Shown in pieces: positions 1,987 through 46,037 of a stretch of DNA of 64,000 bases. The stretch covers positions 96,001 through 160,000 of IMG/VR virus record IMGVR_UViG_3300035670_010555; one strand, given 5' to 3'. The position numbers and the translations under genes are program-made. The notes under the pieces are model-generated. The model was not told the DNA's origin and ran no database searches. It was given only the letters and a program-made list of their open reading frames with translations. The first letter of the stretch is position 1. Every line of letters begins with the position of its first letter. The stretch comes from a virus.

Positions 1987-3511
1987 CTCAATATTTTTTC
2001 AGTGTAGGGTATTGAATACTGAAGACCCAATGATGTTGGGTAGAATCCGAGGTGTTAGACTTATCGACAATTATGACGATATCTTGAAAAGTATCAGTGA
2101 TCCTCCATGGAATGAGGAAAAAGATATATGGACATCAAGAGACCCATTTGTATTCAACGCGCTACTTCCCTATTTTGTATACTCTGTACCTAAAGTAGAC
2201 GAATTAGTACAGGTTATTTACGTAAACAAAGATTTCCAATATCAAAATCAGTACTACGTTCAGAATACCTTCTCGACCCCAACAGCAACATTCAAAGAAT
2301 TTTATTTTGGTGGAAATAAATTTACTGGCACGGGTATGCAAATCAAAAACCCAAAACCACTTAAAAATCAAGATGGTACTTTTACCGACCAATCTATACA
2401 TAAAGGAGTTTTTCCACAACCAGGGGATAATGCTCTCTTAGGTAGAGGAAGTGCGGATGTAATCATCAAACAAGATGAAGTTTTAATCAGAGCGGGTAAA
2501 TTCAAAGGGGAACAATTACAACCTAACGTAATACCTGTTGCAAACCAACAAAGAGGGTTTTTACAACTTTCTAAATTTCAAAGTACATTACAGAATTTAG
2601 AACCAAAAACGTATTTTGAATTACAAGAAAATGTTTTACTTACAAAATACTTAATCGAATGGACTTTAACCAACCCTGAAAATGCTCAAGATAGATTTAC
2701 AGGGGCGGTATATTTGTACCAACTAAAACCTGACGTTTCGATAAATTCCAAAAATATAACTGTTGATAGTGAAATTTCGGAAAACCTAAAAAAGTTAGTG
2801 GCAACCGAATCGTTTGTAATGTTGTCTAAAACACAAACTATTAAATTTATAAATGATTTTATAAATACATGTAATGAAACAAATGTGACTAAAAGTGGTA
2901 TTCAATTGTTTAGTGATAACAACGCTTCAAACAAATTTCCGATTTACTATCGGCCTAATTCATTAATGTATTCAAAATTAAATCCCTCCACTCCTTTGGG
3001 GTCATCGGCCACACCAATAGAAGTTAGTAACATCAGTGACATTTATAAGGGGATAAAATTAAATCCATCACTAAAAGGTGGATATGGATTAATTTATGCA
3101 AAAGGGAAGGTCGGAAATCCAAGAACACCAGTAAAAAAAGTAGTTAAACAACAAAAATACATCAATCAGGAATCTTCTTATGGGGCTTTAGGTAGTGATG
3201 TGCTATTTTTAGTTTCACACAATTCACAAGTACCTGGAAAAGGGAAAATCAATTTTGATGATACTTTATATGGGATTACTCCTGAGAAATTTGCTAATGA
3301 ATTTCTTCCAAAAACTTCAAGTATGGTTAGAGGTGAGGAACTTTTGGAATTGATTAACTTGATTGTAAAATTCTTGGTAACTCATACTCACGCATACCCA
3401 GGTCTACCACCAGTACCGGTAACTCAAGACGGTACAAACGTCCAATCTATCCTGACCGAACTCAATAATGCGGTTAACAAAATTCTAAGTAAAAATATTC
3501 GACTTAATTGA
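1976..3511 (+). CDS. Baseplate hub/spike protein, T4 gp5/VgrG-like
   Basis: N-terminal RVLNTEDPMMLGRIRG resembles the gp5 OB-fold motif; C-terminal THTH resembles the metal-binding spike-tip motif. Confidence 0.65.
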   Translation: MENNSIFFQCRVLNTEDPMMLGRIRGVRLIDNYDDILKSISDPPWNEEKDIWTSRDPFVFNALLPYFVYSVPKVDELVQVIYVNKDFQYQNQYYVQNTFSTPTATFKEFYFGGNKFTGTGMQIKNPKPLKNQDGTFTDQSIHKGVFPQPGDNALLGRGSADVIIKQDEVLIRAGKFKGEQLQPNVIPVANQQRGFLQLSKFQSTLQNLEPKTYFELQENVLLTKYLIEWTLTNPENAQDRFTGAVYLYQLKPDVSINSKNITVDSEISENLKKLVATESFVMLSKTQTIKFINDFINTCNETNVTKSGIQLFSDNNASNKFPIYYRPNSLMYSKLNPSTPLGSSATPIEVSNISDIYKGIKLNPSLKGGYGLIYAKGKVGNPRTPVKKVVKQQKYINQESSYGALGSDVLFLVSHNSQVPGKGKINFDDTLYGITPEKFANEFLPKTSSMVRGEELLELINLIVKFLVTHTHAYPGLPPVPVTQDGTNVQSILTELNNAVNKILSKNIRLN

Positions 3512-25475: not shown

Positions 25476-27488
25476 ATGAACGACTTAATGGACGACGAAG
25501 ACAAAATGATGAGTAAAAAACAGAAGTCAGGAGATACCTCGACACCTGTGCTAGACAATTTCAGTAGAGACTTGAATAAACTTGCAGAGGCGGGTAAATT
25601 GGACCCTGTCATCGGAAGAGACCGAGAGATTCTACGAATCGCTCAAATTCTTTCCCGAAGAAAGAAAAATAACCCAATTATTCTTGGTGAACCTGGTTGT
25701 GGTAAGACCGCAATCGTTGAAGGTTTGGCAATGAAAATTGTTAATGGTGATTGTCCTCGTAATCTCTTGGATAAGAGATTGGTTAACCTTGACCTAACTT
25801 CAGTTGTTGCCGGTACAAAGTATCGTGGACAATTTGAAGAAAGAATGAAGGTTATCATTGAAGAACTTCAAGCTAATCCTAACATCATCGTATTCATTGA
25901 TGAGATTCATACGTTGGTTGGTTCAGGTAATTCCTCAGGTTCGATGGATGGTTCCAACATTTTCAAACCAGCATTGGCACGTGGTGAACTACAAGTAATC
26001 GGTGCAACCACTTTGGATGAATTCAGAAAGAACATCGAAAAAGATGGGGCATTGGAACGTAGATTCCAAAAAGTCATTGTTGACCCATCTACAGTGACTG
26101 AGACAATCCAAATTTTGAAAAATGTTCGGGACAAATACGAAACATATCACAAAGTGACTTATTCCGATGAAGTCATTGAAACTTGTGTTAAGTTGGCGGA
26201 TAGATATATCACCGACCGTGAATTCCCTGACAAAGCATTCGACATCTTGGATGAAGTTGGAGCTAGAATGCAAACCGAACTTAAGGTTCCCGAAGCAATC
26301 GAAGAGTTGAAGCGTAAGGCTGCAGAGCTGAAACAACAGAAGTTGGATGTAGTTAAAAAACAGAATTACGAACAAGCGGCACAACTCAGAGACAAGGAAA
26401 AAAAGTTGTTGGACAAATTGGAACAAGAAAAACAAAAGTTCGAGGAACAAATGTCCAAAGACAAACAAAAGGTCGGAATGGATGATGTTTATGATGTTGT
26501 TTCAAACATGACTAAAATCCCTGTTAACAAAATGTCTACAGATGATACCAAAGCGTTGTTGAACTTAGATAAACACATTGTTGGAACTGTCATTGGTCAG
26601 GATGCTGCGGTCATCAAGGTTGCAAAATCTATCAAGAGAAACCGACTTGGTATCAAAGATCCAAATCGTCCGATTGGTTCATTCGTTTTCTTGGGTTCAA
26701 CTGGTGTTGGTAAAACTCACCTTGCAAAACAACTTGCAAAAGAAATGTTTGGAAGTGAGGACGCACTAATCCGTGTGGATATGTCTGAGTACCAAGAGAA
26801 ACACACCGTATCCAAATTAGTTGGAGCTCCTCCAGGCTATGTTGGATATGAAGAAGGTGGGTTGTTGACTGAGAAAGTTAAGAACAAACCTTACTCTGTT
26901 ATCTTGTTCGATGAGGTTGAGAAAGCTCACAAGGACGTATTCACGGTGTTACTACAAATCTTGGACGATGGTCACGTTACAGATAGTTTGGGTAGAAAGA
27001 TTAATTTCAAAAACACTTTGATTATCTTAACATCAAATCTTGGAGTTAAAAAACTACAGGACTTCGGGACTGGTATTGGATTCTCAAATAATACCTATAG
27101 TAACGAAGAAGCGAAGAAAGATATCTTGATGAAAGAAATGAAAAATTTCTTTTCTCCTGAGTTTATTAATCGTATCGATGACACCATCGTTTTCAATTCT
27201 CTATCTCAAGAGGATATCAAGAAAATCACTGACATCGAACTTAAGAAGTTGATGAATCGTCTTGACGAAATGAAGTATAAGATTACTTATGATGAATCAC
27301 TTTTGAATTACCTATCAAAAATCGGATATGATGAGGTATACGGTGCAAGACCACTCAAGAGAGCGATTCAGGATAAAGTTGAAGACTTATTATCTGAAGA
27401 AGTTCTGACCGACAAAATTATCGTAGGAAAAACCTACGTGATTAAAGTCGAAGATGAAGTAGTCAAAGTAGTCAAGAAAGGTCGGTAA
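25476..27488 (+). CDS. clpC: ClpC-type AAA+ unfoldase lacking the N-terminal Clp repeat domain
   Basis: Two Walker A motifs ([16 protein letters not shown]), UVR-type M-domain ([11 protein letters not shown]), IGF ClpP-docking loop and GARPLKR. Confidence 0.9.
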
Positions 27489-30757: not shown

Positions 30758-33700
30758 ATGAAAAAAAATCTATTACAAGGGGTTTTATCATTCTTGGTTT
30801 TACTGATGTCGTTTGGACTGACGTATTCTCAAGGGGTAACAACATCAAACATTTCAGGTAAAGTTGCAACCGATACGGGTGAGACATTACCAGGGGCGTT
30901 AGTACTAGCTACTCACACTCCATCGGGAACAAAATATTCTACAGTCACTAATAATGAAGGAAGATATTTAATTCCAAACACAAGGATTGGTGGTCCTTAC
31001 ACAATCACTGTATCATTCATAGGATATAGTACATCATCTACTGATGGAGTATTTTTATCTTTGGGTGTTACTTCAAATATCAATATCCAACTTAAGTCAG
31101 AAGATATTGGTATTGCGGAAGTACTTGTAATGGGAGATAAAAATCCAGTATTTAGCTCCGATAGAACTGGTGCGTCTTCTGCAATTACAAATCAAAACTT
31201 AACTAGATTACCAACCATTTCAAGAAGTATCAATGATTTTACAAGGTTATCACCACAAGCATCAGGTAACTCTTTTGCAGGACAGGATGGTAGATTGAAT
31301 AATATTACTGTTGATGGTTCTTATTTTAACAACTCATTCGGTTTGGGTTCAGGTTCTAATCCAGGTGGTAGAACAGGTGTATCTCCAATCTCTTTGGATG
31401 CTATTGACCAAATCTCAATTAACGTAGCACCTTATGATGTAAGACAAGGTAACTTCGTTGGTGCTGGTGTAAACACAGTAACTCGTTCGGGTACTAACGA
31501 ACTATCTGGTTCGGTTTATGGGTTTAGTAGAAACAACAATTTAGTTGGAACTGAAGCAGGTGAAAAGAAATTTAATCCTGGGCAATTTGATTACAAACAA
31601 TTCGGTTTCCGTTTAGGTGGACCAATCATTAAGGATAAATTATTCTTCTTTGGTTCATTTGAAGATGAAAAAACTACTCAACCAGGAACTACTTTTAGAG
31701 CAAACAAAGGTGGAGAACCTGCGTCTGGTAATGTTACAAGAGTATTGGCTTCTGATTTAGACCAATTGAGTTCATTCTTAAAAACCAAATATGGATATGA
31801 GACAGGACCTTATCAGGGATACGATAACACTACCGCAGCTACCAAGTTTTTGGGTAAGATTGACTGGAACATTAGTGATAAAAACAAATTTAGTTTAAGA
31901 TATACACATTTGGACTCTAATACCGATGTTCTTGCATCTGGTTCATCTTCATTAGGTTTTGGTGGAAGAAACTTTAACCTTAACGCACTTAACTTCCAAA
32001 ATTCAAATTACATTATCAACGAAAACATCCGTTCAATTGTAGGTGAATTGAATAGTAGATTATCCGATAAAGTTACAAACAACTTTATTATTGGATACAC
32101 TTATCAGGATGAGTCACGAGGTTCGAGAGGTGATTTCTTTCCGTTGGTGGATATTCTTAAAGATGGAGCAACTTACACCACTTTTGGTTTTGAGGCTTTC
32201 ACTCCAAGCAACGAATTGAGATACAAGACGTTCCAAATCCAAAACAACTTACAAATCTTTAGAGATAGAAGTACTTGGACATTTGGTGGTAGTTATGAAA
32301 AATATCAATCTGAAAACGTGTTCTTTCCAGGTTCCCAATCCGCTTATGTATTTAACTCTTTAGAAGATTTTTACGCATCTGCAGGTGGAAATGAGGATAT
32401 CACACTCCGAAGATTTCAGGTTAGATACAACAACATTCCTGGTCAAGAAAAACCAGTACAACCACTTTCAGTTGATTACTTTGGTTTGTATGGACAGAAT
32501 GAATTGAGAGTTAGTGATAACTTTACAACTACACTTGGATTGAGAGTTGATGTACCCATCTTTGGTGAGACTGGATTTAGAAATACCGAAGTTGAAGGTA
32601 TGAACTTTGTTGACGCAGATGGTAATACTACAAAGTATAGAACTGATAAACTACCTGATGCAAATCTATTGTGGTCTCCACGAGTTGGTTTTAACTATGA
32701 TGTAAAAGGTGATAAGACCCTTCAATTAAGAGGTGGTACCGGTATCTTTACTGGTAGACCTGCGTATGTATGGGTATCCAATCAAATCGGTAACAACGGT
32801 ATCCTAACTGGATTTGAGAGATTGGATAATACTAAATCAAGACCTTTTTCACCTGATCCAGAAACTTATAAACCACAAGATGTGACAGGTGCTCCGGCTA
32901 AAAACTATGAATTGGCGCTAAGTGATACAGATTTTAAGTTTCCACAAGTATGGAGAACGAACATCGCGGTTGATAAGAAACTACCTGGCGGAATTATCGG
33001 TACAGCTGAATTCATTTACTCAAAAGATGTAAATGGAGTATCTTACCACAACGCAAACCTTGCTCCATCTAACGGAGTATTTGCAGGACCAGACCAGAGA
33101 GTAAGATGGGTTGGTGGAAACACAGCAACAAGAATTAATGGTAAGATTGATAATGCTGTAACTTTGGGTAACCAAGCAATCGGTTCATCTTATGTAGCAT
33201 CCGTTTCTTTGGAAAAACCATTTACTAATGGATTGTACGCAAAAGCAGCATACTCTTATGGTATTACCGAAAACACAGTTGATGCAGGTTCAATCGCATT
33301 CGGTTCTTGGAATAACAGACCTCATAGTGGAAACCCGAATAATAATGAATTAGGATTATCCTCAAACTCAATGGGACATAGAGTATTTACTGCATTGAGT
33401 TACTCTAAAGATTTCTTCTCATTCGGTAATACATCCGTTGGTTTGTTTTGGGAAGGTAGAACTATCGGTAACTACTCTTATGTATATGGCGGTGACTTGA
33501 ATGGAGATGGTGGATTTTCTAATGATTTGATTTACATTCACAAAGATAAGAGTGAAATGAGATTTGTACCATTCACATCTTCAGGAAAATCATTCACTGC
33601 GGAAGAACAAGCATCCGCATGGGAAGCGTTTATCCTACAAGATAAATACCTAAGTGCAAATAGAGGTTCAGTAGCGGAAAGAGGAGCGGCATTCTTACCT

Positions 33701-34006
33701 ATGGTATTCCGTGCTGATTTCAACTTTACCCAACAACTATTCACCAACATCGGTGGTAAGAGAAATACCTTAGAGTTTAGAGCAGATGTTCTAAATGTTG
33801 GTAACCTATTGAATAGTGCATGGGGTGTTGGACAATTTGTAACATCTACTTCACCATTAGTTCCAGCAGGAACAACTTCAAGTGGTGAACCACAATTCAG
33901 ATTAAGAAATCTTGGTAATCAATTGATTACACAAACATTTCAACCAACCGTTGGTGTAGGAGATGTTTGGAGAGCTCAATTTGGATTGAGATATAGTTTT
34001 AATTAA
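30758..34006 (+). CDS. TonB-dependent outer-membrane receptor (Oar-like, N-terminal carboxypeptidase-regulatory-like domain)
   Basis: Signal peptide; ISGKV..DTGETLPGA.V; plug NNITVDG...ISLDAI; WSPRVGFNYD; C-terminal GLRYSFN barrel end. Confidence 0.9.
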   Translation: MKKNLLQGVLSFLVLLMSFGLTYSQGVTTSNISGKVATDTGETLPGALVLATHTPSGTKYSTVTNNEGRYLIPNTRIGGPYTITVSFIGYSTSSTDGVFLSLGVTSNINIQLKSEDIGIAEVLVMGDKNPVFSSDRTGASSAITNQNLTRLPTISRSINDFTRLSPQASGNSFAGQDGRLNNITVDGSYFNNSFGLGSGSNPGGRTGVSPISLDAIDQISINVAPYDVRQGNFVGAGVNTVTRSGTNELSGSVYGFSRNNNLVGTEAGEKKFNPGQFDYKQFGFRLGGPIIKDKLFFFGSFEDEKTTQPGTTFRANKGGEPASGNVTRVLASDLDQLSSFLKTKYGYETGPYQGYDNTTAATKFLGKIDWNISDKNKFSLRYTHLDSNTDVLASGSSSLGFGGRNFNLNALNFQNSNYIINENIRSIVGELNSRLSDKVTNNFIIGYTYQDESRGSRGDFFPLVDILKDGATYTTFGFEAFTPSNELRYKTFQIQNNLQIFRDRSTWTFGGSYEKYQSENVFFPGSQSAYVFNSLEDFYASAGGNEDITLRRFQVRYNNIPGQEKPVQPLSVDYFGLYGQNELRVSDNFTTTLGLRVDVPIFGETGFRNTEVEGMNFVDADGNTTKYRTDKLPDANLLWSPRVGFNYDVKGDKTLQLRGGTGIFTGRPAYVWVSNQIGNNGILTGFERLDNTKSRPFSPDPETYKPQDVTGAPAKNYELALSDTDFKFPQVWRTNIAVDKKLPGGIIGTAEFIYSKDVNGVSYHNANLAPSNGVFAGPDQRVRWVGGNTATRINGKIDNAVTLGNQAIGSSYVASVSLEKPFTNGLYAKAAYSYGITENTVDAGSIAFGSWNNRPHSGNPNNNELGLSSNSMGHRVFTALSYSKDFFSFGNTSVGLFWEGRTIGNYSYVYGGDLNGDGGFSNDLIYIHKDKSEMRFVPFTSSGKSFTAEEQASAWEAFILQDKYLSANRGSVAERGAAFLPMVFRADFNFTQQLFTNIGGKRNTLEFRADVLNVGNLLNSAWGVGQFVTSTSPLVPAGTTSSGEPQFRLRNLGNQLITQTFQPTVGVGDVWRAQFGLRYSFN

Positions 34007-38885: not shown

Positions 38886-38953
38886 GTGTCAGGACGGGTT
38901 TCTAACCCGCTCCTCAGTTAACTACTGTGTGCTGCCATTTACACCACCTGACT
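38886..38953 (-). ncRNA. Degenerate AGTCAGG-family tRNA-like element (E0)
   Basis: Same acceptor strands (AGTCAGG/CCTGAC) as E1-E8; altered T-loop (GGTTAGAAACC); short interior. Confidence 0.55.
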
Positions 38954-38957
38954 ATTG

Positions 38958-39029
38958 TGTGACCGAAGAGAATCGAACTCTTACCTGAAGTGCCACAAAC
39001 TTCCGCCCTCCCACTAGGCTACGGCCACC
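38958..39029 (-). tRNA. tRNA-His(GTG)
   Basis: gaagt-TTGTGGC-acttc; genomic G-1 present; position 73 reads A. Confidence 0.85.
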
Positions 39030-39099
39030 ATATAATAATTTAGATTTCTAAAACTCATCCTCGAAAGGGTAAAGAAACTCCATCTTATTTGTTTTTTGC

Positions 39100-39248
39100 G
39101 TAGTCAGGACAGGATTCGAACCTGTATTTGTGGAGCACCATCTCCAACGTCTGAATCGAACAGAACCAATCAATCCTCTACGGGTGGTACATCTGCAGCT
39201 GTACCACTTATTCAAGAACAGCGTCTAACCAATTCCGCCACCTGACTA
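39100..39248 (-). ncRNA. tRNA-Leu-like scaffold with unique insert (E1)
   Basis: AGTCAGG-TGGCGGAATTGGTTAGACGC ... ACAGGTTCGAATCCTGT-CCTGACT-A; the interior contains hairpins and a second T-arm-like ctgTTCGATTcag. Confidence 0.75.
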
Positions 39249-39254
39249 TCCTAA

Positions 39255-39461
39255 TTATTTACCTCCTCCGTCACCATCAAGATATATCAATCTTACTGTT
39301 TCACCACTACCTATATTATGAATAGTAAAGGTAGGATATGAACCGTCTTCATTTCTTTTGTTAATAGTGTCAGTTGGCCAAATTTCAAAACCATGTTCCC
39401 AACACAGATGGTCTAATTTATCAATAAACTCATCAGTTTCTTTACTTATTTCTTTTTCCAT
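39255..39461 (-). CDS. Small hypothetical protein (inside the direct-repeat-flanked cassette)
   Basis: 68-aa ORF with AATTAAAAGTT-ATG start context. Confidence 0.55.
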   Translation of the reverse strand: MEKEISKETDEFIDKLDHLCWEHGFEIWPTDTINKRNEDGSYPTFTIHNIGSGETVRLIYLDGDGGGK

Positions 39462-39470
39462 AACTTTTAA

Positions 39471-39572
39471 TTACAAAAGTCTATACCAAATCTTAATTGT
39501 CATATCTCTTTGAGGGGATGGTTTTAGTTTTGACCATCTGTCAATCCATTCTTTAATTTCTTCTTTACTCAT
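39471..39572 (-). CDS. 33-aa small protein (MSKEEIKEWIDRWSKLKPSPQRDMTIKIWYRLL)
   Basis: Read manually; same AATTAAAAGTT-ATG start context as its neighbour. Confidence 0.5.
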   Translation of the reverse strand: MSKEEIKEWIDRWSKLKPSPQRDMTIKIWYRLL

Positions 39573-39594
39573 AACTTTTAATTTTTTCACCTGA

Positions 39595-39732
39595 CTATCC
39601 TAATTTCCACCACCTACCACATTTTTGACATTCTTGTGGTCCATATGCTTTATGCATTTTATGTTTATCTAAAACAAAATCATGTACAAATAAACACCAT
39701 ACGTTTCCAAATTGTCTAATAATCCATTTCAT
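39595..39732 (-). CDS. 45-aa putative Zn-binding protein (C...H...CxxC)
   Basis: Read manually: MKWIIRQFGNVWCLFVHDF...ECQKCGRWWKLG*; its TAG stop overlaps a TAGTCAGG element end. Confidence 0.55.
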   Translation of the reverse strand: MKWIIRQFGNVWCLFVHDFVLDKHKMHKAYGPQECQKCGRWWKLG

Positions 39733-39743
39733 ATATTTTTTAA

Positions 39744-39908
39744 TTAAAATATAATACTTAATAAATGACCTATAAAAATACCTGTTGCTAAGGCTGATAA
39801 CGATAGACTTACAAGTGTTTTTTTAGATAAATCTTTAATAAATGATGGTAGTATCCAGCTTGATATTAATACTAACCATCCCACAATTACAGCAATTTCT
39901 ATTTCCAT
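39744..39908 (-). CDS. 54-aa two-TM membrane protein
   Basis: Read manually: MEIEIAVIVGWLVLISSWILP...LSALATGIFIGHLLSIIF*. Confidence 0.55.
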   Translation of the reverse strand: MEIEIAVIVGWLVLISSWILPSFIKDLSKKTLVSLSLSALATGIFIGHLLSIIF

Positions 39909-39925
39909 AACTTTTATTTTTAGTT

Positions 39926-40005
39926 GTAGTCAGGACAGGATTCGAACCTGTGATAGACGCTCCTTAGAGTCCGCTATCATGGCAACCAATTCCGCCACCT
40001 GACTA
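39926..40005 (-). ncRNA. tRNA-like scaffold (E2, shortest of E1-E8)
   Basis: Identical 26-nt T-arm/acceptor block; interior is a single tgatag...ctatca hairpin. Confidence 0.7.
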
Positions 40006-40108
40006 TGTTGAGAATGAGAAGTCCTCTGTGTTGTAGTGCACGATTATGTTTTCCATAATTCAAGTAATGTCACTCATCTTTATGTCTCCTTTCTCAAGGG
40101 TACAACAC
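40006..40108 (-). ncRNA. Pseudoknot-like repeat element B1
   Basis: Conserved ends shared with 40235-40316; GTGTTGT/ACAACAC and TGAGAA/TTCTCA crossing pairings. Confidence 0.55.
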
Positions 40109-40112
40109 ATTT

Positions 40113-40234
40113 GTAGTCAGGACAGGATTCGAACCTGTACGAAGAGTATGTGTGTCTCTTCTCCTATGGGTTTACCTCAAGGGTTTCCACCTGCCATCGC
40201 ACGTTGTAGCGTCTACCATTCCGCCACCTGACTA
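40113..40234 (-). ncRNA. tRNA-Leu-like scaffold with unique insert (E3)
   Basis: Conserved ends; unrelated interior. Confidence 0.75.
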
Positions 40235-40316
40235 TGTTGAGGATGAGAAGTCCTCTGTGTTGTAGAGTTTGTTTACTCTCTTATATGATAGCATTTCTTT
40301 CTCAAGGAAACAACAC
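40235..40316 (-). ncRNA. Pseudoknot-like repeat element B2
   Basis: Second copy of the B scaffold with a different interior. Confidence 0.55.
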
Positions 40317-40447
40317 GTTGTAATGGAGTGGGTCTATTCCCCACAGTCAACAGAACTTAAAACTTACCTACGAGAGAGAGGTATTCTGTATGATCGTTCC
40401 CATTGCCTAAACAGTGTCTAGTATGCCTTCGGTTGTCTCTCGTGTCA

Positions 40448-40588
40448 GTAGTCAGGACAGGATTCGAACCTGTATGCACTATTAAGGTAATGCTTTTGTA
40501 TGTTTTTCAGTGTCCACTACAAGTTTCCTTAATTTTGTAGTAACTACTTTCATCCTCACATAACGTCTACCATTCCGCCACCTGACTA
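40448..40588 (-). ncRNA. tRNA-Leu-like scaffold with unique insert (E4)
   Basis: Conserved ends; interior has an actacaa/ttgtagt stem. Confidence 0.75.
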
Positions 40589-40619
40589 AATTACTTGTTT
40601 TCGATTATCAAGTTGATAG

Positions 40620-40943
40620 TTACAATTCGTAACGAGCCAATGCTGCGTCTGTGATTTCCTTTGCTTTTTTACAAATCAACACATCTTCTGAATAAATATG
40701 ATAAATTGAATCAGCTCCCAATTCGCTGAGTAATTGTGTTAACGCAACTGCGTATAATTCAATATCGTCAGCCGTGTGAGACGAAGCAACTTCGCTTCTT
40801 GACATATTTCCGAAAACTTTAGAATGAGATCGTAAGTAATCGTGATGATATGTATATGGAACTCGGCTTTTGCTATGTGGCAATTTATCAATTACTTCTA
40901 GAAACCGTTGAGGCAATGTACTATCTTCTTCTTTTCTGAACAT
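40620..40943 (-). CDS. Hypothetical protein
   Basis: 107-aa ORF preceded by an isolated 5' half of the scaffold (40968-40984). Confidence 0.6.
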   Translation of the reverse strand: MFRKEEDSTLPQRFLEVIDKLPHSKSRVPYTYHHDYLRSHSKVFGNMSRSEVASSHTADDIELYAVALTQLLSELGADSIYHIYSEDVLICKKAKEITDAALARYEL

Positions 40944-40987
40944 ATTTTCCCCTATTTAGATATTACTATTTCACCACCTGACTATTT

Positions 40988-41197
40988 TTATTTTTCCAAA
41001 ACGTACTTCATCATCTCTTGCATCTTGATAATCAAAAGTTCCATTTCATCCTTATTAAGATACAACCTACCGTTTAATGTTTTATCATCCAACTCTTTGA
41101 CTTCAACGATGATACCACCGAAACACTCAGTTGGATAAATTTCAACATTCTGTTCTTCGGTCGCAATAACTGTTTTGTTCCAAACTTTGTTTTTCAT
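40988..41197 (-). CDS. Small hypothetical protein
   Basis: 69-aa ORF co-oriented with the RNA operon. Confidence 0.55.
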   Translation of the reverse strand: MKNKVWNKTVIATEEQNVEIYPTECFGGIIVEVKELDDKTLNGRLYLNKDEMELLIIKMQEMMKYVLEK

Positions 41198-41200
41198 AAC

Positions 41201-41470
41201 TTATTTATTTTTGAATTGTTCAAACCATTGTTCTAATGTTATCTTCTTTCCTGCTAACAAATCTTCTGTATGCTTATAAAGTATATTTAATACTTCTTCC
41301 TCGCTATACATTTTTTCTTGTTGTAATCTAGCAATGTGAATAAACATTGATTTTATCCAAGTTTTTTCGTGAGGCTGTATTGTTTTTGCTTCTAATAACT
41401 CTAAGCTATAATTTTCAGCTGCTTCCTCAAGCTTGAATGCTTGTTCGTAAGGAATAAATTCGGTTTTCAT
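41201..41470 (-). CDS. Small hypothetical protein
   Basis: LEEAAE...MYSEEEV...WFEQFK pattern, common in Bacteroidota phages. Confidence 0.55.
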   Translation of the reverse strand: MKTEFIPYEQAFKLEEAAENYSLELLEAKTIQPHEKTWIKSMFIHIARLQQEKMYSEEEVLNILYKHTEDLLAGKKITLEQWFEQFKNK

Positions 41471-41574
41471 TTCTCTTTACAGTTTAAGTTTCTCTCTTAT
41501 TACTCCACTAATGTCCGAAAAAGATTTTACATCCACAAGGGATTTGTAAAATATTTTATTTTTTTTTTTGGTAG

Positions 41575-41648
41575 TGACCCCGCCGAGATTCGAACTCGGG
41601 ACTCCTTCATTAAAAGTGAAGTGCTCTAGCCAACTGAGCTACGAAGTC
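41575..41648 (-). tRNA. tRNA-Lys(TTT)
   Basis: cttca-CTTTTAA-tgaag. Confidence 0.9.
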
Positions 41649-41652
41649 ATTT

Positions 41653-41802
41653 GTAGTCAGGACAGGATTCGAACCTGTATGTAGATTTTGTATGTACTTT
41701 TGGCTTTGAAATCATCTACTAATTTCTGTACCCTAGAATACATCGGCTGCACAGCACCATATACATACTCTCACAGCGTCTACCAATTTCGCCACCTGAC
41801 TA
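41653..41802 (-). ncRNA. tRNA-Leu-like scaffold with unique insert (E5)
   Basis: Conserved ends; unrelated interior. Confidence 0.75.
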
Positions 41803-41916
41803 TTTTTGAAAAGATATGTGGTGTCGCTCCACTGCCTCTACAACCTAAGAATTTCGCTCAGAATAATTCCGTACTAATTCAAATTGCTAACAACACTTTT
41901 TTGAGTGTATATCCTT

Positions 41917-42024
41917 GTAGTCAGGACAGGATTCGAACCTGTATTGATTTACTTATTGATTGGGTGTCAACTTAATGTCTTCCAATCAATCATCAATCTA
42001 CCATTAGCTTTCGCCACCTGACTA
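41917..42024 (-). ncRNA. tRNA-like scaffold with unique insert (E6)
   Basis: Conserved ends; interior long hairpin attgattgg/ccaatcaat. Confidence 0.7.
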
Positions 42025-42106
42025 TATTAGGTTAGAGGCTGTTAACCATAAGGTCGTACGAAACATCACTTGTACTTCGTGTCAGGGAATCTCCCATACC
42101 TCTAAA

Positions 42107-42223
42107 GTAGTCAGGACAGGATTCGAACCTGTAATATGAAGTTATTCCCGATTACCCTCGTTATTACCTTCATCCCTATTGAGTGGAGGGATTATATTTG
42201 ACACCAATTTCGCCAACTGACTA
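42107..42223 (-). ncRNA. tRNA-like scaffold with unique insert (E7)
   Basis: Identical 26-nt 3' block; one acceptor mismatch; two interior hairpins. Confidence 0.7.
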
Positions 42224-42340
42224 ATGTTTTTAGTTACTTTATCAACACTTCTCCAAGAACCACCTCGGCCAGTTTATATCAATTTCACTTAGGTTACGTC
42301 ATGATTCTGCTGGTTAAGCGTCCTCAATCTAAACCTGTTT

Positions 42341-42448
42341 GTAGCCAGGACAGGTACTGCCCCTGTTGCTTGGTCTTTTGTTCACAGAGTGTCACTTATG
42401 ATACTCTGTCAAACGTCACCCACGAGTTACTTTTACTCTACCTGACTA
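42341..42448 (-). ncRNA. Divergent tRNA-like scaffold (E8)
   Basis: AGTCAGG/CCTGGCT acceptor and T-stem ACAGG/CCTGT retained, with loop GGCAGTA; interior acagagt/actctgt hairpin. Confidence 0.6.
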
Positions 42449-42451
42449 TAC

Positions 42452-42634
42452 TGTAATACCGTTTCTCTGGTTTTTACTTATGGTTTGTTCCCCATAACCT
42501 GTTGACGTGCACATCAGAGCAAGGACCTGTACAGTGTCTATCGAGCCGTTCCTCACCTTCCAATTATGGTTGCGACCCATTCGGAAGTCGATAGTCCTTT
42601 CAGTGAAGCATTATCACCTTCTGTAGATATTACA
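42452..42634 (-). ncRNA. Unidentified multi-stem structured RNA (about 183 nt)
   Basis: Nested pairings tgtaata/tattaca, aaggac/gtcctt, ctatcga/tcgatag, cttcc/ggaag, ctctg/cagag and ttatgg/ccataa. Confidence 0.55.
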
Positions 42635-45861: not shown

Positions 45862-46037
45862 AATTAAACCTAACATAATCAAATCGTCATTTGAATAGAG
45901 GTTAGGGGTGTGATTTTAGCTTATGCCTTGGGCTATTCACTTATCACGATACGACCTCTGTGTTGTTCTTATGGTTAACATCGAGGTACAGACTTACCCT
46001 GGTACGCTGTTCTTATGGGTAGCGTGATAAGTACTGT

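What the first reader, a model, noticed from the sequence alone, without database searches (positions are those of the whole stretch)
40006..40316. Second constant-end/variable-middle RNA with double-pseudoknot potential alternates with the scaffolds
SEEN: two copies (40006-40108 and 40235-40316), each directly 5' of a scaffold on the minus strand: GTGTTGT(A/T)(C/T)CCTTGAGAAAG-[variable]-CTACAACACAGAGGACTTCTCAT(T/C)CTCAACA. The pairings GTGTTGT/ACAACAC, TGAGAA/TTCTCA and CCT/AGG cross each other. The 12-mer CCTCTGTGTTGT recurs near 45955. KNOWN: HDV-like theta ribozymes sit next to phage tRNAs and process their ends, but the strand order here does not match the HDV fold as I read it. INFERENCE: possibly a new self-cleaving or nuclease-resistant module that processes or protects the array.
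Basis: partly seen in the sequence, partly recalled or inferred. Interest (0 to 1): 0.75.

Follow-up and report, generated by a model that had tools for sequence, protein, structure and literature searches.

The report
Kissing-loop RNA family in phage tRNA arrays
The two repeats are real genes of a widespread, uncatalogued family of small folded phage RNAs, held together by one loop-to-loop pseudoknot and usually lying just before tRNA-like genes; a relative is abundantly transcribed in a cultured phage, but the function is unknown.

Summary
Observation confirmed. Two copies (40108-40008 and 40316-40237, minus strand) share constant ends and differ in the middle. They are not a local duplication.

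The fold is a 7-bp closing stem P1, a 5' hairpin Pa, a variable arm Pc stacked on P1, and a 3' hairpin Pb. Loop UGAGAA (Pa) pairs with loop UUCUCA (Pb). The only three Pa-loop variants found at the two G positions tested in IMG/VR all carry the compensating change.

The element has no Rfam match and does not have the HDV/theta topology. A longer form, class B, lies upstream of phage tmRNAs. In Cellulophaga phage phi14:2 it falls in an intergenic region published as a very abundant, stable non-coding transcript.

Best reading: a stable RNA excised by tRNA-processing enzymes. Its invariant core probably binds a host factor. Function is untested.

T4 RNA D may be a distant relative (weak evidence). 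Unfollowed first-reader notes from this scan on other genomes had flagged the same pairings upstream of tmRNAs.

The parts
40008..40108 (-). Copy 1 of the kissing-loop RNA (class A, 101 nt, 'type-1' middle)
   Evidence: Covariance model R1 scores it 69.1 bits, E about 1e-11. The sequence is shown. Near-identical middles occur in other contigs (L122, L127, L129, L133, L138, L153).
40237..40316 (-). Copy 2 of the kissing-loop RNA (class A, 80 nt)
   Evidence: R1 scores it 82.6 bits, E about 2e-14.
40102..40108 (-). Copy 1, P1 5' strand GUGUUGU
   Evidence: Pairs with 40028-40034 (ACAACAC). The MFE fold recovers the helix. Covariation in relatives is counted.
40028..40034 (-). Copy 1, P1 3' strand ACAACAC, followed by a single A
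   Evidence: The nucleotide after P1 is A in 88 of 99 class A members.
40086..40101 (-). Copy 1, hairpin Pa (ACC / GGAG stem, 9-nt loop CUUGAGAAA)
   Evidence: The family consensus is UUCC[CUUGAGAAA]GGAA. Copy 2 has UUUC/GAAA and phage phi14:2 has UCAC/GUGG, both compensatory.
40091..40096 (-). Copy 1, pseudoknot 5' strand UGAGAA (in the Pa loop)
   Evidence: Pairs with 40015-40020. The variants UGAUAA/UUAUCA (L014, L407) and UUAGAA/UUCUAG (L408) are compensated.
40035..40074 (-). Copy 1, variable arm Pc. AGUG/CACU closes it and abuts P1; the distal stem is AUUAUG/CAUAAU.
   Evidence: The MFE fold recovers it. The distal stem changes to AUUACA/UGUAAU in L125 and L142, while the 11-nt internal loop stays fixed.
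40010..40026 (-). Copy 1, hairpin Pb (GAGGA [CUUCUCA] UUCUC, one G-U pair)
   Evidence: Searches show Pb covariation: GC to AU at pair 1 in 14 sequences. Variant stems AAGGG/CCCUU, GAUG/CAUC, GAAG/CUUC and AAUG/CAUU are listed.
40015..40020 (-). Copy 1, pseudoknot 3' strand UUCUCA (in the Pb loop)
40310..40316 (-). Copy 2, P1 5' strand
   Evidence: Pairs with 40257-40263.
40294..40309 (-). Copy 2, hairpin Pa (UUUC / GAAA stem, loop CUUGAGAAA; pseudoknot strand at 40299-40304)
   Evidence: The C-to-U change is matched by a G-to-A change relative to the consensus UUCC/GGAA.
40264..40279 (-). Copy 2, arm Pc (AGAGU [AAACAA] ACUCU)
   Evidence: MFE and centroid folds. Parsed.
40257..40263 (-). Copy 2, P1 3' strand
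40239..40255 (-). Copy 2, hairpin Pb (GAGGA [CUUCUCA] UCCUC; pseudoknot strand at 40244-40249)
39927..40005 (-). tRNA-Leu-like scaffold starting 3-5 nt after copy 1 (the downstream neighbour, not part of the element)
   Evidence: Rfam tRNA model, 31.9 bits. Not called by ARAGORN.
40114..40234 (-). tRNA-Leu-like scaffold between copy 2 and copy 1
   Evidence: Rfam tRNA model, 37.1 bits.

Best explanation
The two repeats are paralogous genes of an undescribed family of small structured phage RNAs.

Fold:
- A 6-7 bp closing stem P1 (GUGUUGU/ACAACAC).
- A short 5' hairpin Pa with a 9-nt loop.
- A purine-rich linker.
- A variable arm Pc whose 3' strand runs straight into P1.
- One A after P1, then a 3' hairpin Pb.
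- Loop UGAGAA (Pa) pairs with loop UUCUCA (Pb). This ties the 3' tail back onto the three-way junction.

Biogenesis (inferred): the RNA is made as part of the long untranslated tRNA / tRNA-like transcript. Host tRNA-processing enzymes probably cut it out. RNase P would cut at the +1 of the next tRNA(-like) gene, 2-6 nt downstream. RNase P, or an endonuclease acting on the AU-rich linker, would cut just before G1. P1 plus Pc looks like an acceptor/T-stem minihelix, with U at -1, G at +1 and A after the stem. The product would be a stable RNA of about 75-130 nt.

Function (inferred, least certain): the near-invariant core is a recognition surface for a conserved host component, and the RNA acts in trans as a decoy, sponge or modulator. 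The arm Pc tolerates or carries subtype-specific sequence.

My odds:
- Real conserved pseudoknotted RNA family: about 0.95.
- Excised as a discrete RNA: about 0.6.
- Trans-acting binder of a host factor: about 0.35.
For: Family size and strand:
- A 16-mer and a 17-mer scan of IMG/VR, followed by covariance model R1, gave 179 matches, 148 of them distinct, in the 286 fetched loci.
- tRNAs in those loci lie on the element's strand 687 times and on the other strand 27 times.

Structure:
- On two alignments, 94.8% and 96.9% of cells form standard pairs. 12 and 8 pairs show changes on both sides. 0 of 500 shuffles reach the observed values. Slid controls pair only 36-60%.
- The pseudoknot was tested directly. 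Scanning all of IMG/VR for Pa-loop variants at the two G positions found only three, and each carries the compensating change in the partner strand.
- Pa in phage phi14:2 is UCAC/GUGG, a double compensation.
- The Pc distal stem switches between AUUAUG/CAUAAU and AUUACA/UGUAAU.
- MFE folds of both window copies recover P1, Pc and Pb.

Not a local duplication: the two copies have different middles, and copy 1's middle recurs with different neighbours in other contigs.

Context:
- At least 53 of 99 class A members lie within 15-22 nt upstream of a tRNA or tRNA-like 5' end.
- 8 of the 23 ARAGORN-called downstream neighbours are tRNA-Leu, against 65 of 577 in the background.
- Position -1 is U in 64 of 99, and the nucleotide after P1 is A in 88 of 99.

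Expression of a relative: phi14:2 carries a class B member (46.5 bits). It lies between g004 and g006. In that phage the g004-g005 and g005-g006 intergenic regions are reported as rightward transcripts more abundant than most mRNAs and stable through infection (bioRxiv 10.1101/2020.03.07.982082).

Host factor: the core is shared by a T4-like phage (the window: Gp23, Gp20) and a crAss-like phage. The two phi14:2 neighbour proteins I tested (g004 and g007) have no match in the window's phage record. No match was found in 151 sampled genomes of the Bacteroidota phylum.
Against: - There are no expression or end-mapping data for class A or for this phage.
- P1, Pa and the pseudoknot are almost invariant in sequence, so each rests on few independent compensatory events. 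The searches that collected relatives were anchored on exact words from these very regions.
- Such invariance could also reflect recent horizontal spread of a module.
- MFE z-scores of the two copies are weak (-1.4 and -2.1).
- RNase P cleavage at G1 is inferred only from shape and flanking bases. Pb occupies the place of a free 3' end.
- No partner protein or target was identified.
- Hosts of most contigs are unknown, so the shared-host-factor argument is soft.
- About 40% of class A members are not next to a recognisable tRNA.
Confidence: 0.5

Rival explanations
1. It is a cis-acting leader or punctuation module. The compact fold has no trans function. It insulates neighbouring near-identical tRNA-like units from mispairing. 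It presents the following tRNA(-like) 5' end to RNase P, or it blocks exonucleases from chewing into neighbours.
For: - Tight, fairly constant spacing of 2-6 nt to the next tRNA(-like) gene in at least 53 of 99 class A members.
- Enrichment before tRNA-Leu and tRNA-Leu-like scaffolds.
- Up to 4 copies within one array (L262).
- AU-rich single-stranded linkers on both sides.
- The three-way junction with a hairpin loop paired to the 3' tail has the same gross topology as exonuclease-resistant RNAs (own knowledge of flavivirus xrRNA).
Against: - Class B members keep the same core but are not adjacent to any tRNA (0 of 44 within 15 nt).
- About 40% of class A members lack an adjacent tRNA.
- Simple insulation would not need about 45 near-invariant nucleotides.
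- Other spacers in the same array do the same job with unrelated sequences.
- No Rfam xrRNA family matched, even at E up to 10.
Confidence: 0.22
2. It is a new class of self-cleaving ribozyme that cuts at its own 5' or 3' border. This would free neighbouring tRNAs without host nucleases, as theta ribozymes are proposed to do.
For: - Compact pseudoknotted fold with about ten conserved positions that are unpaired in my model: C11, U12, A19, U24, the AAG/AG junction, and the A residues flanking P1.
- P1 starts with G1, like HDV-type ribozymes.
- There is a precedent for ribozymes next to phage tRNAs (PMC10879173).
Against: - The HDV/theta strand order is not met.
- The C before UUCUCA is not conserved. 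It is lost in the 25 class A members whose tail is 2 nt shorter, and in class B.
- Distances to the tRNA ends vary by several nucleotides.
- Only about 19 of 99 have a tRNA 3' end within 15-40 nt upstream.
- No ribozyme family matched at E up to 10.
- The prior that an orphan structured RNA is self-cleaving is low.
Confidence: 0.1
3. It is mainly a DNA-level feature: a short mobile or recombinogenic cassette with 7-bp inverted ends that has recently spread among phage tRNA regions. The RNA fold would be incidental.
For: - Near-identical ends (exact 16- and 17-mers) in well over 100 otherwise diverse contigs.
- Modules are shuffled between relatives. L133 joins the upstream neighbour of copy 2 to a copy-1-type element and a different scaffold.
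- Homing endonucleases are common in phage tRNA regions (T4 segB).
Against: - The strand is fixed relative to the tRNAs (687 versus 27).
- Compensatory changes occur in four helices, including a loop-loop pairing that has no meaning in duplex DNA.
- G-U pairs are tolerated on the transcribed strand only.
- No target-site duplication was seen.
- A relative is abundantly transcribed.
Confidence: 0.06
4. The copies encode small peptides. In-frame ATG codons give M...YNTEDFS(F/S)ST*, with the stop codon overlapping the start of the scaffold.
For: Both window copies have an ATG in frame with the conserved 3' end, and copy 1 has an AAGGAG upstream of another short frame.
Against: - Only 24 of 99 class A members have an in-frame ATG without an intervening stop.
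- The stop position is not conserved.
- 25 members have a tail 2 nt shorter than the other 67, which breaks the frame.
- The ATG of copy 1 sits in a stem that covaries to ACA in relatives.
Confidence: 0.01

Closest known systems
T4 'species 2' and 'species 1' stable RNAs (RNA D and RNA C) of the T4 tRNA gene cluster
   Same: - Stable small RNAs of unknown function, co-transcribed with the tRNAs of a T4-type phage (PMC3014915, PMC9697503).
- T4 has the order tRNA, RNA D, RNA C (which ends in a tRNA-like T arm). The window has element, then tRNA-like scaffold.
- The RNA D family also has constant ends and a variable middle.
- RNA D is the best R1 hit in 10 kb of T4. It shares CUGAUG-UUCCCUG...CAUCAC-AG in the same register as GUGUUG-UUCCCUUG...CAACAC-AG.
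   Different: - The score is only 15.1 bits (E about 0.06, with rough calibration).
- In the RNA D family the Pa 3' strand is not conserved and there is no UUCUCA partner, so the defining pseudoknot is missing.
- RNA D has an extra 5' hairpin and an outer stem ending in CCA.
- Homology is possible but not shown.
Theta ribozymes (minimal HDV-like ribozymes next to phage tRNAs; PMC10879173)
   Same: Small pseudoknotted RNA beside phage tRNA genes, with a 7-bp first helix beginning with G.
   Different: - The strand order differs. There is no P2 strand between P1 and a 3-bp P3.
- There is no P4 and no conserved catalytic C.
- The element is tied more to the tRNA downstream than to a tRNA 3' end.
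- Its habitat is freshwater and marine rather than gut.
- No Rfam HDV-type model matched.
The abundant early non-coding transcripts of Cellulophaga phage phi14:2 (g004-g005 and g005-g006 intergenic regions; bioRxiv 10.1101/2020.03.07.982082)
   Same: The g004-g006 interval holds a class B member of this family (46.5 bits, with a compensated Pa stem) and the phage tmRNA. The published transcripts run in the same direction.
   Different: - The paper describes only transcript abundance, with no fold or family.
- The phi14:2 RNA is the long class B form, with about 150-250 extra nucleotides.
- My assignment of the intergenic names rests on the record's gene names.
Large orphan phage and bacterial RNAs found beside tRNAs (GOLLD, ROOL; PMC12286853) and bacterial Y RNAs (YrlA, RF02553)
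   Same: Structured non-coding RNAs of unknown or RNP function. They are often phage-borne, lie next to tRNAs, and use loop-loop contacts or tRNA-like modules.
   Different: - No Rfam match to any of them on the element.
- Much smaller than GOLLD or ROOL.
- No Ro60 (TROVE) gene in the phage record.
- A different fold.

Membership tests
HDV-like / theta ribozymes | Nested double pseudoknot in the order P1(5')-P2(5')-P3 hairpin-P1(3')-P1.1-P4 hairpin-J4/2-P2(3') | tested here: not met
   The order here is P1(5')-Pa hairpin-linker-Pc hairpin-P1(3')-A-Pb hairpin. The only crossing helix joins the Pa loop to the Pb loop. There is no hairpin between P1(3') and the crossing strand in class B.
HDV-like / theta ribozymes | Invariant catalytic cytosine at the first position of J4/2 (PMC10879173) | tested here: not met
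   The C before UUCUCA is missing in the 25 class A members whose tail is 2 nt shorter, for example GAGG-UUCUCA-ACCUC. It is also missing in class B, which has AAAUGAG-UUCUCA.
HDV-like / theta ribozymes | Cleavage site (G1) within about 5 nt of a tRNA 3' end | tested here: not met
   Only 19 of 99 class A members, and 0 of 44 class B members, have a tRNA or T-arm/acceptor end within 15-40 nt upstream. Where one is present the gap is 3-9 nt.
HDV-like / theta ribozymes | Self-scission in vitro | not testable with these tools
   Needs a transcription and Mg2+ cleavage assay.
Any Rfam 15 family | Covariance-model match | tested here: not met
   No match overlaps 40006-40316 even at E up to 10. There is also none on class B members.
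T4 RNA D (species 2 RNA) family | Sequence and structure similarity to T4 rnaD | tested here: inconclusive
   R1 against T4 positions 66000-76000: the best hit is rnaD itself at 15.1 bits, E about 0.06. P1 and the UUCCCU motif share the same register. Pa and the pseudoknot are not conserved in six rnaD homologues.
T4 RNA D (species 2 RNA) family | Position directly after a tRNA and before a tRNA-like stable RNA in a T4-type tRNA cluster | tested here: met
   T4 has tRNA-Arg, rnaD, rnaC. The window has scaffold, element, scaffold in a phage with Gp23, Gp20 and T4-type terminase.
tRNA (RF00005) | Cloverleaf detectable by the tRNA model or ARAGORN | tested here: not met
   The element has no tRNA hit; only its neighbours do.
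Bacterial Y RNA (YrlA) | Rfam RF02553 match and a Ro60 (TROVE) partner gene | tested here: not met
   The sub-threshold YrlA hits in the array lie elsewhere. No TROVE match in the phage record, which is 56% complete.
Exonuclease-resistant RNA (flavivirus-type xrRNA) | Three-way junction with a loop-to-3'-tail pseudoknot, plus the 5' end threaded through the ring, and resistance to a 5'-3' exonuclease | not testable with these tools
   The first feature is present as topology. Threading and resistance need a structure or an enzyme assay. No Rfam xrRNA family matched.

The most novel reading that the evidence does not exclude
The invariant core (P1, Pa and the pseudoknot) is the catalytic or inhibitory heart of a new phage RNA class acting on the tRNA-processing machinery. 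It could be a new self-cleaving ribozyme that punctuates untranslated RNA operons. Or it could be an RNase P substrate mimic that retunes host RNase P. In either case T4 RNA D would be a degenerate relative, which would finally give the 50-year-old orphan T4 RNAs a function.
Probability: 0.12. Interest if true: 0.88.

Novelty: new variant of a known kind. Interest (0 to 1): 0.66.

Why it matters
Stable RNAs of unknown function have been known in phage tRNA clusters since T4 species 1 and 2, but they have stayed orphans.

This work defines a widespread, uncatalogued family of at least 148 distinct sequences. It has a clear architecture and a directly supported pseudoknot. The family is shared by T4-like and crAss-like phages. 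It has two forms, one before tRNA(-like) genes and one before tmRNAs.

A member sits in a cultured, transcriptome-profiled model phage, phi14:2, inside a region already reported as one of its most abundant transcripts. That makes the function experimentally approachable through deletion, pull-down and processing assays. It also gives a possible handle on T4 RNA D.

The work also supplies a seed alignment and model for annotation, so that such stretches stop being called hypothetical ORFs. Several such ORF calls in this stretch of the phi14:2 record have since been withdrawn.

Tried and rejected
- HDV/theta fold: I mapped every helix onto the HDV scheme. The strand order, P4 and the catalytic C do not fit.
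- A GNRA-capped alternative for Pa (CCUU-GAGA-AAGG, chosen by the MFE fold for copy 1): disfavoured. The loop variants GAUA and UAGA keep the long-range pairing rather than the tetraloop.
- An alternative partner for the Pa loop (UUGAG with the conserved CUCAA after Pb): not supported. L407 changes the loop and the UUCUCA strand together but leaves CUCAA unchanged.
- Small-peptide reading: rejected.
- Third copy at 45955: rejected.
- Blastn of the whole 721-nt stretch against cultured phages found nothing. Class A queries gave only chance-level hits. The 20-mer in Pseudoalteromonas phage HM1 lacks P1 and has no tRNA context, so I treat it as chance.
- The genome-contig scan was mostly chance 17-mers. 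8 of 120 hits were real, all on MAG contigs. One (L300) has the same sample number and length as an IMG/VR viral contig.
- No match in 151 sampled Bacteroidota genomes.
- My simple longest-stem statistic for Pc barely exceeded shuffles (4.9 versus 4.4 bp). The support for Pc therefore rests on its position next to P1 and on compensatory changes within subfamilies.
- Searches for a shared neighbouring protein (phi14:2 g004 and g007), for Ro60 and for a CCA-adding enzyme in the phage record were negative.
- The sigma-70 promoter and terminator scan of the array found fewer promoter-like sites than in shuffles (7 against 12.6 expected) and no excess of terminator-like sites.
- Literature searches found no description of this family.
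Full report
**What is in the window.** The minus strand from about 36.9 to 46.2 kb is an RNA-gene region of an uncultured T4-type phage. The phage encodes major capsid Gp23, portal Gp20 and a T4-type terminase. The window is part of a 170-kb IMG/VR record. The region holds 17 tRNAs and about nine tRNA-Leu-like 'scaffolds' with aberrant middles. It also holds a near-threshold freshwater-1 RNA. A tmRNA lies on the other strand.

The finding covers two elements, at 40108-40008 (101 nt) and 40316-40237 (80 nt). They share a 5' end, GUGUUGU(A/U)(C/U)CCUUGAGAAAG, and a 3' end, CUACAACACAGAGGACUUCUCAU(U/C)CUCAA. Their middles are unrelated. The shared 20-mer and 23-mer are never seen in shuffles. Each element ends 3-5 nt before a scaffold.

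**It is a large family, not a local duplication.**
- An exact 16-mer from the 3' end and an exact 17-mer from the 5' end each pulled many IMG/VR contigs.
- The matches carry the rest of the element, with highly diverse middles.
- Covariance model R1, built from 44 sequences, finds 179 matches, 148 of them distinct, in the 286 fetched loci. It finds exactly two in the phage's own 170-kb record.
- Copy 1's middle recurs almost unchanged in at least eight other contigs, next to different neighbours. L133 joins the upstream neighbour of copy 2 to a copy-1-type element and a different scaffold. The two copies are therefore old paralogous subtypes, and the modules are reshuffled among phages.

**The fold.** The consensus is:

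GUGUUGU-UCC[CUUGAGAAA]GGA-A-U-(linker ending AAG/GAG)-AGnnn...nnnCU-ACAACAC-A-GAGGA[CUUCUCA]UCCUC-AA

- P1 (GUGUUGU/ACAACAC) closes the molecule.
- Pa is a 3-4 bp hairpin with a 9-nt loop.
- Pc is a hairpin of variable length whose 3' strand abuts P1.
- Pb is a 5-bp hairpin with a 7-nt loop.
- UGAGAA in the Pa loop pairs with UUCUCA in the Pb loop.

Pair counts on two model-aligned sets give 94.8% and 96.9% standard pairs. They show 12 and 8 pairs with changes on both sides. No shuffle out of 500 reaches the observed values, and slid controls pair only 36-60%.

Specific compensations:
- P1: GCGUUG/CAACGC and GUGUUC/GAACAC, with U-G intermediates.
- Pa: UUUC/GAAA in window copy 2, and UCAC/GUGG in phage phi14:2.
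- Pb: GAGGA/UCCUC, AAGGG/CCCUU, GAUG/CAUC, GAAG/CUUC and AAUG/CAUU.
- Pc: AGUG/CACU, AGAGU/ACUCU, AGGAU/AUCCU, UAGGG/CCCUA and GCAACUA/UAGUUGC versus GUAACUA/UAGUUAC. Within the type-1 subfamily, AUUAUG/CAUAAU changes to AUUACA/UGUAAU.

My collection was anchored on exact words that include the loops, so I tested the pseudoknot separately. I scanned all of IMG/VR for elements whose Pa loop differs at either G. Only three exist. All three carry the compensating change in the partner strand:
- UGAUAA with UUAUCA, twice, in different elements.
- UUAGAA with UUCUAG.

Thermodynamic folding of the two window copies recovers P1, Pc and Pb, although the z-scores are modest.

Two of the three pairings are real, and they do cross. 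The third, CCT/AGG, is not a pairing. Those bases belong to Pa and Pb. AGG is AUG in 37 of 98 relatives with CCU unchanged. The element therefore has one pseudoknot, a loop-loop kiss. The 12-mer at 45955-45966 is real, but that stretch is not a family member (7.4 bits).

**Two forms.**
- Class A (99 distinct sequences, including both window copies) ends in hairpin Pb.
- Class B (44 distinct) keeps P1, Pa, Pc and the UUCUCA strand.
- Class B adds an upstream hairpin capped by a GUAA loop.
- It also has a single-stranded AAAUGAG linker in place of Pb.
- It ends in a further 100-250 nt domain...GACCCUACUCUUAU...AAGAGGGUGCUAA.
- Class B often lies upstream of a phage tmRNA.
- Neither form matches any Rfam family, even at E up to 10.

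**Context.**
- tRNAs in the loci are on the element's strand 687 times against 27.
- At least 53 of 99 class A members sit immediately upstream of a tRNA or tRNA-like 5' end. The gap after Pb is typically AA plus 0-4 nt.
- Only 19 of 99 follow a tRNA(-like) 3' end closely.
- The downstream neighbour is enriched for tRNA-Leu: 8 of 23 ARAGORN calls against 65 of 577 in the background. In addition there are about 37 tRNA-Leu-like scaffolds.
- The base before G1 is U in 64 of 99 class A and 39 of 44 class B members. The base after P1 is A in 88 of 99 and 38 of 44.
- With P1 (7 bp) stacked on Pc (usually 4-5 bp), this resembles an acceptor/T-stem minihelix with U(-1), G(+1) and a purine 'discriminator'. 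That is why I infer RNase P may define the 5' end as well as the 3' end.
- No sigma-70-type promoter or terminator stands out inside the array.

**Coding and DNA-level rivals.**
- The small in-frame ORFs of the window copies are not conserved. Only 24 of 99 have an ATG, the stops are scattered, and a 2-nt length difference in the tail splits the family 25 to 67.
- A purely DNA-level repeat is hard to square with the strand bias, the G-U tolerance and a compensated loop-loop pairing.

**Hosts and distribution.**
- Only 8 of 120 hits of the 17-mer in prokaryote genome contigs are true elements. All are on MAG contigs. One (L300) has the same sample number and length as an IMG/VR viral contig.
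- Model R1 found nothing in 151 sampled Bacteroidota genomes.
- Among cultured phages, the crAss-like Cellulophaga phage phi14:2 has a class B member. It lies about 670 nt upstream of that phage's tmRNA.
- I found no class A member in the cultured-phage collection.

**Experimental anchor.** In phi14:2 the element lies between genes g004 and g006 of the record. Drobysheva et al. report on two long intergenic regions, the g004-g005 and g005-g006 junctions:
- They are transcribed rightward.
- Their level is above that of most protein genes.
- Their function is undetermined (bioRxiv 10.1101/2020.03.07.982082).

The interval contains two structured RNAs that I can see: the class B RNA and the tmRNA. 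This is indirect but real evidence that the family is expressed as abundant, stable RNA.

**Comparison with known systems.**
- Theta / HDV-like ribozymes (PMC10879173) are the obvious precedent for small pseudoknotted RNAs next to phage tRNAs. Their defining strand order, P4 and catalytic C are absent here.
- The nearest thing by context is the pair of orphan stable RNAs in the T4 tRNA cluster. Their roles remain unknown (PMC3014915, PMC9697503).
- T4 RNA D is the best R1 hit in 10 kb of T4 (15.1 bits, E about 0.06). It shares CUGAUG-UUCCCUG...CAUCAC-AG in the same register as the family's GUGUUG-UUCCCUUG...CAACAC-AG.
- RNA D homologues also show constant ends around a variable middle.
- They do not conserve the Pa 3' strand or any UUCUCA partner. 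I therefore rate this as a possible distant relationship only.

**How it most likely works.**
- Shown: a conserved, compact, pseudoknotted three-way-junction RNA, transcribed in the sense of the tRNA array.
- Inferred: excision by tRNA-processing enzymes into a stable RNA of about 75-130 nt.
- More weakly inferred: a trans-acting role through a conserved host factor. The roughly 45 near-invariant nucleotides are shared by unrelated phage lineages. The two phi14:2 neighbour proteins tested have no match in the window's phage. No copy was found in the bacterial genomes sampled.
- Still open: a cis-acting leader, insulator or nuclease-block role, and a new self-cleaving ribozyme. I rank both lower for the reasons given under the rivals.

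**Earlier notes of this scan.** First-reader notes on other genomes had already flagged TGTGTTG/CAACACA helices and ttgagaa/ttctcaa crossings in ORF-free stretches upstream of tmRNAs, without follow-up. These fit class B. Another follow-up on a different genome named T4 species 1 and 2 as the closest known for a different tRNA-leader pseudoknot.

Noticed in passing
window 42472-42533 (-): Match to Rfam freshwater-1 RNA (RF02979) at 70 bits, just under the gathering score of 72 (E 2e-15 in the local search). It lies inside the roughly 180-nt structured stretch after tRNA-Glu. It places a known orphan lake-metagenome motif in a phage tRNA array.
   Followed up: no
window 38890-42448 (-): About nine tRNA-Leu-like 'scaffolds' (AGUCAGGUGGCGGAA...variable...ACAGGUUCGAAUCCUGUCCUGACUAC).
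   Followed up: partly
loci L184-L284 (for example L251:965-1175, L235:520-710); NC_021806 about 3115-3365: Class B: a 200-350 nt RNA with the same core. It adds a GUAA-capped upstream hairpin and a conserved 3' domain (GACCCUACUCUUAU...AAGAGGGUGCUAA). It is often upstream of phage tmRNAs and matches no Rfam family.
   Followed up: partly
NC_000866 71053-71171 (T4 rnaD); locus L409:5054-5172 (-): T4 species 2 RNA shares the P1 / UUCCCU / CACAG register with the family (15 bits). Its own homologues have constant ends and a variable middle.
   Followed up: partly
class B loci, for example L235, L204, L247, L216: A conserved hairpin, AUAAGUGYCCUCACAUGAGGR, lies a few nucleotides upstream of tmRNA or tRNA-like genes. 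It may be another leader module.
   Followed up: no
window 40317-40451 (-): A 135-nt spacer RNA between a scaffold and copy 2 is conserved in L133. It contains TTGACT followed, 17-19 nt later, by a TATTAT-like hexamer in L133. It may be a promoter or another structured RNA.
   Followed up: no
window 45862-46037 (-): The spacer between tRNA-Thr and tRNA-Ser has a 10-bp long-range pair (ACUUAUCACG/CGUGAUAAGU). This pair encloses the ACAACACAGAGG 12-mer and an ACCUC/GAGGU stem. It is a different structured RNA.
   Followed up: no
window 39588-39597 and 40975-40984 (-): Orphan copies of the scaffold 5' end, TAGTCAGGTG, sit just upstream of small ORFs. They look like traces of cassette insertion or recombination at scaffold ends.
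   Followed up: no
window 30758-34006 (+) and 25476-27488 (+): The phage encodes a 1082-aa TonB-dependent-receptor-like outer-membrane barrel with a CarboxypepD_reg domain, and a ClpB-like double AAA+ ATPase. Both are unusual cargo. The first hints at a Bacteroidota-type host.
   Followed up: no
upstream of several class A members (L021, L142, L125, L211, L261, L262): A recurrent upstream hairpin ends in ...CACUAUCAACAAUAUU and begins with GUGUUGAU-like sequence. This is a P1-like inverted repeat around a plain hairpin. It may be a degenerate or minimal relative of the element.
   Followed up: no
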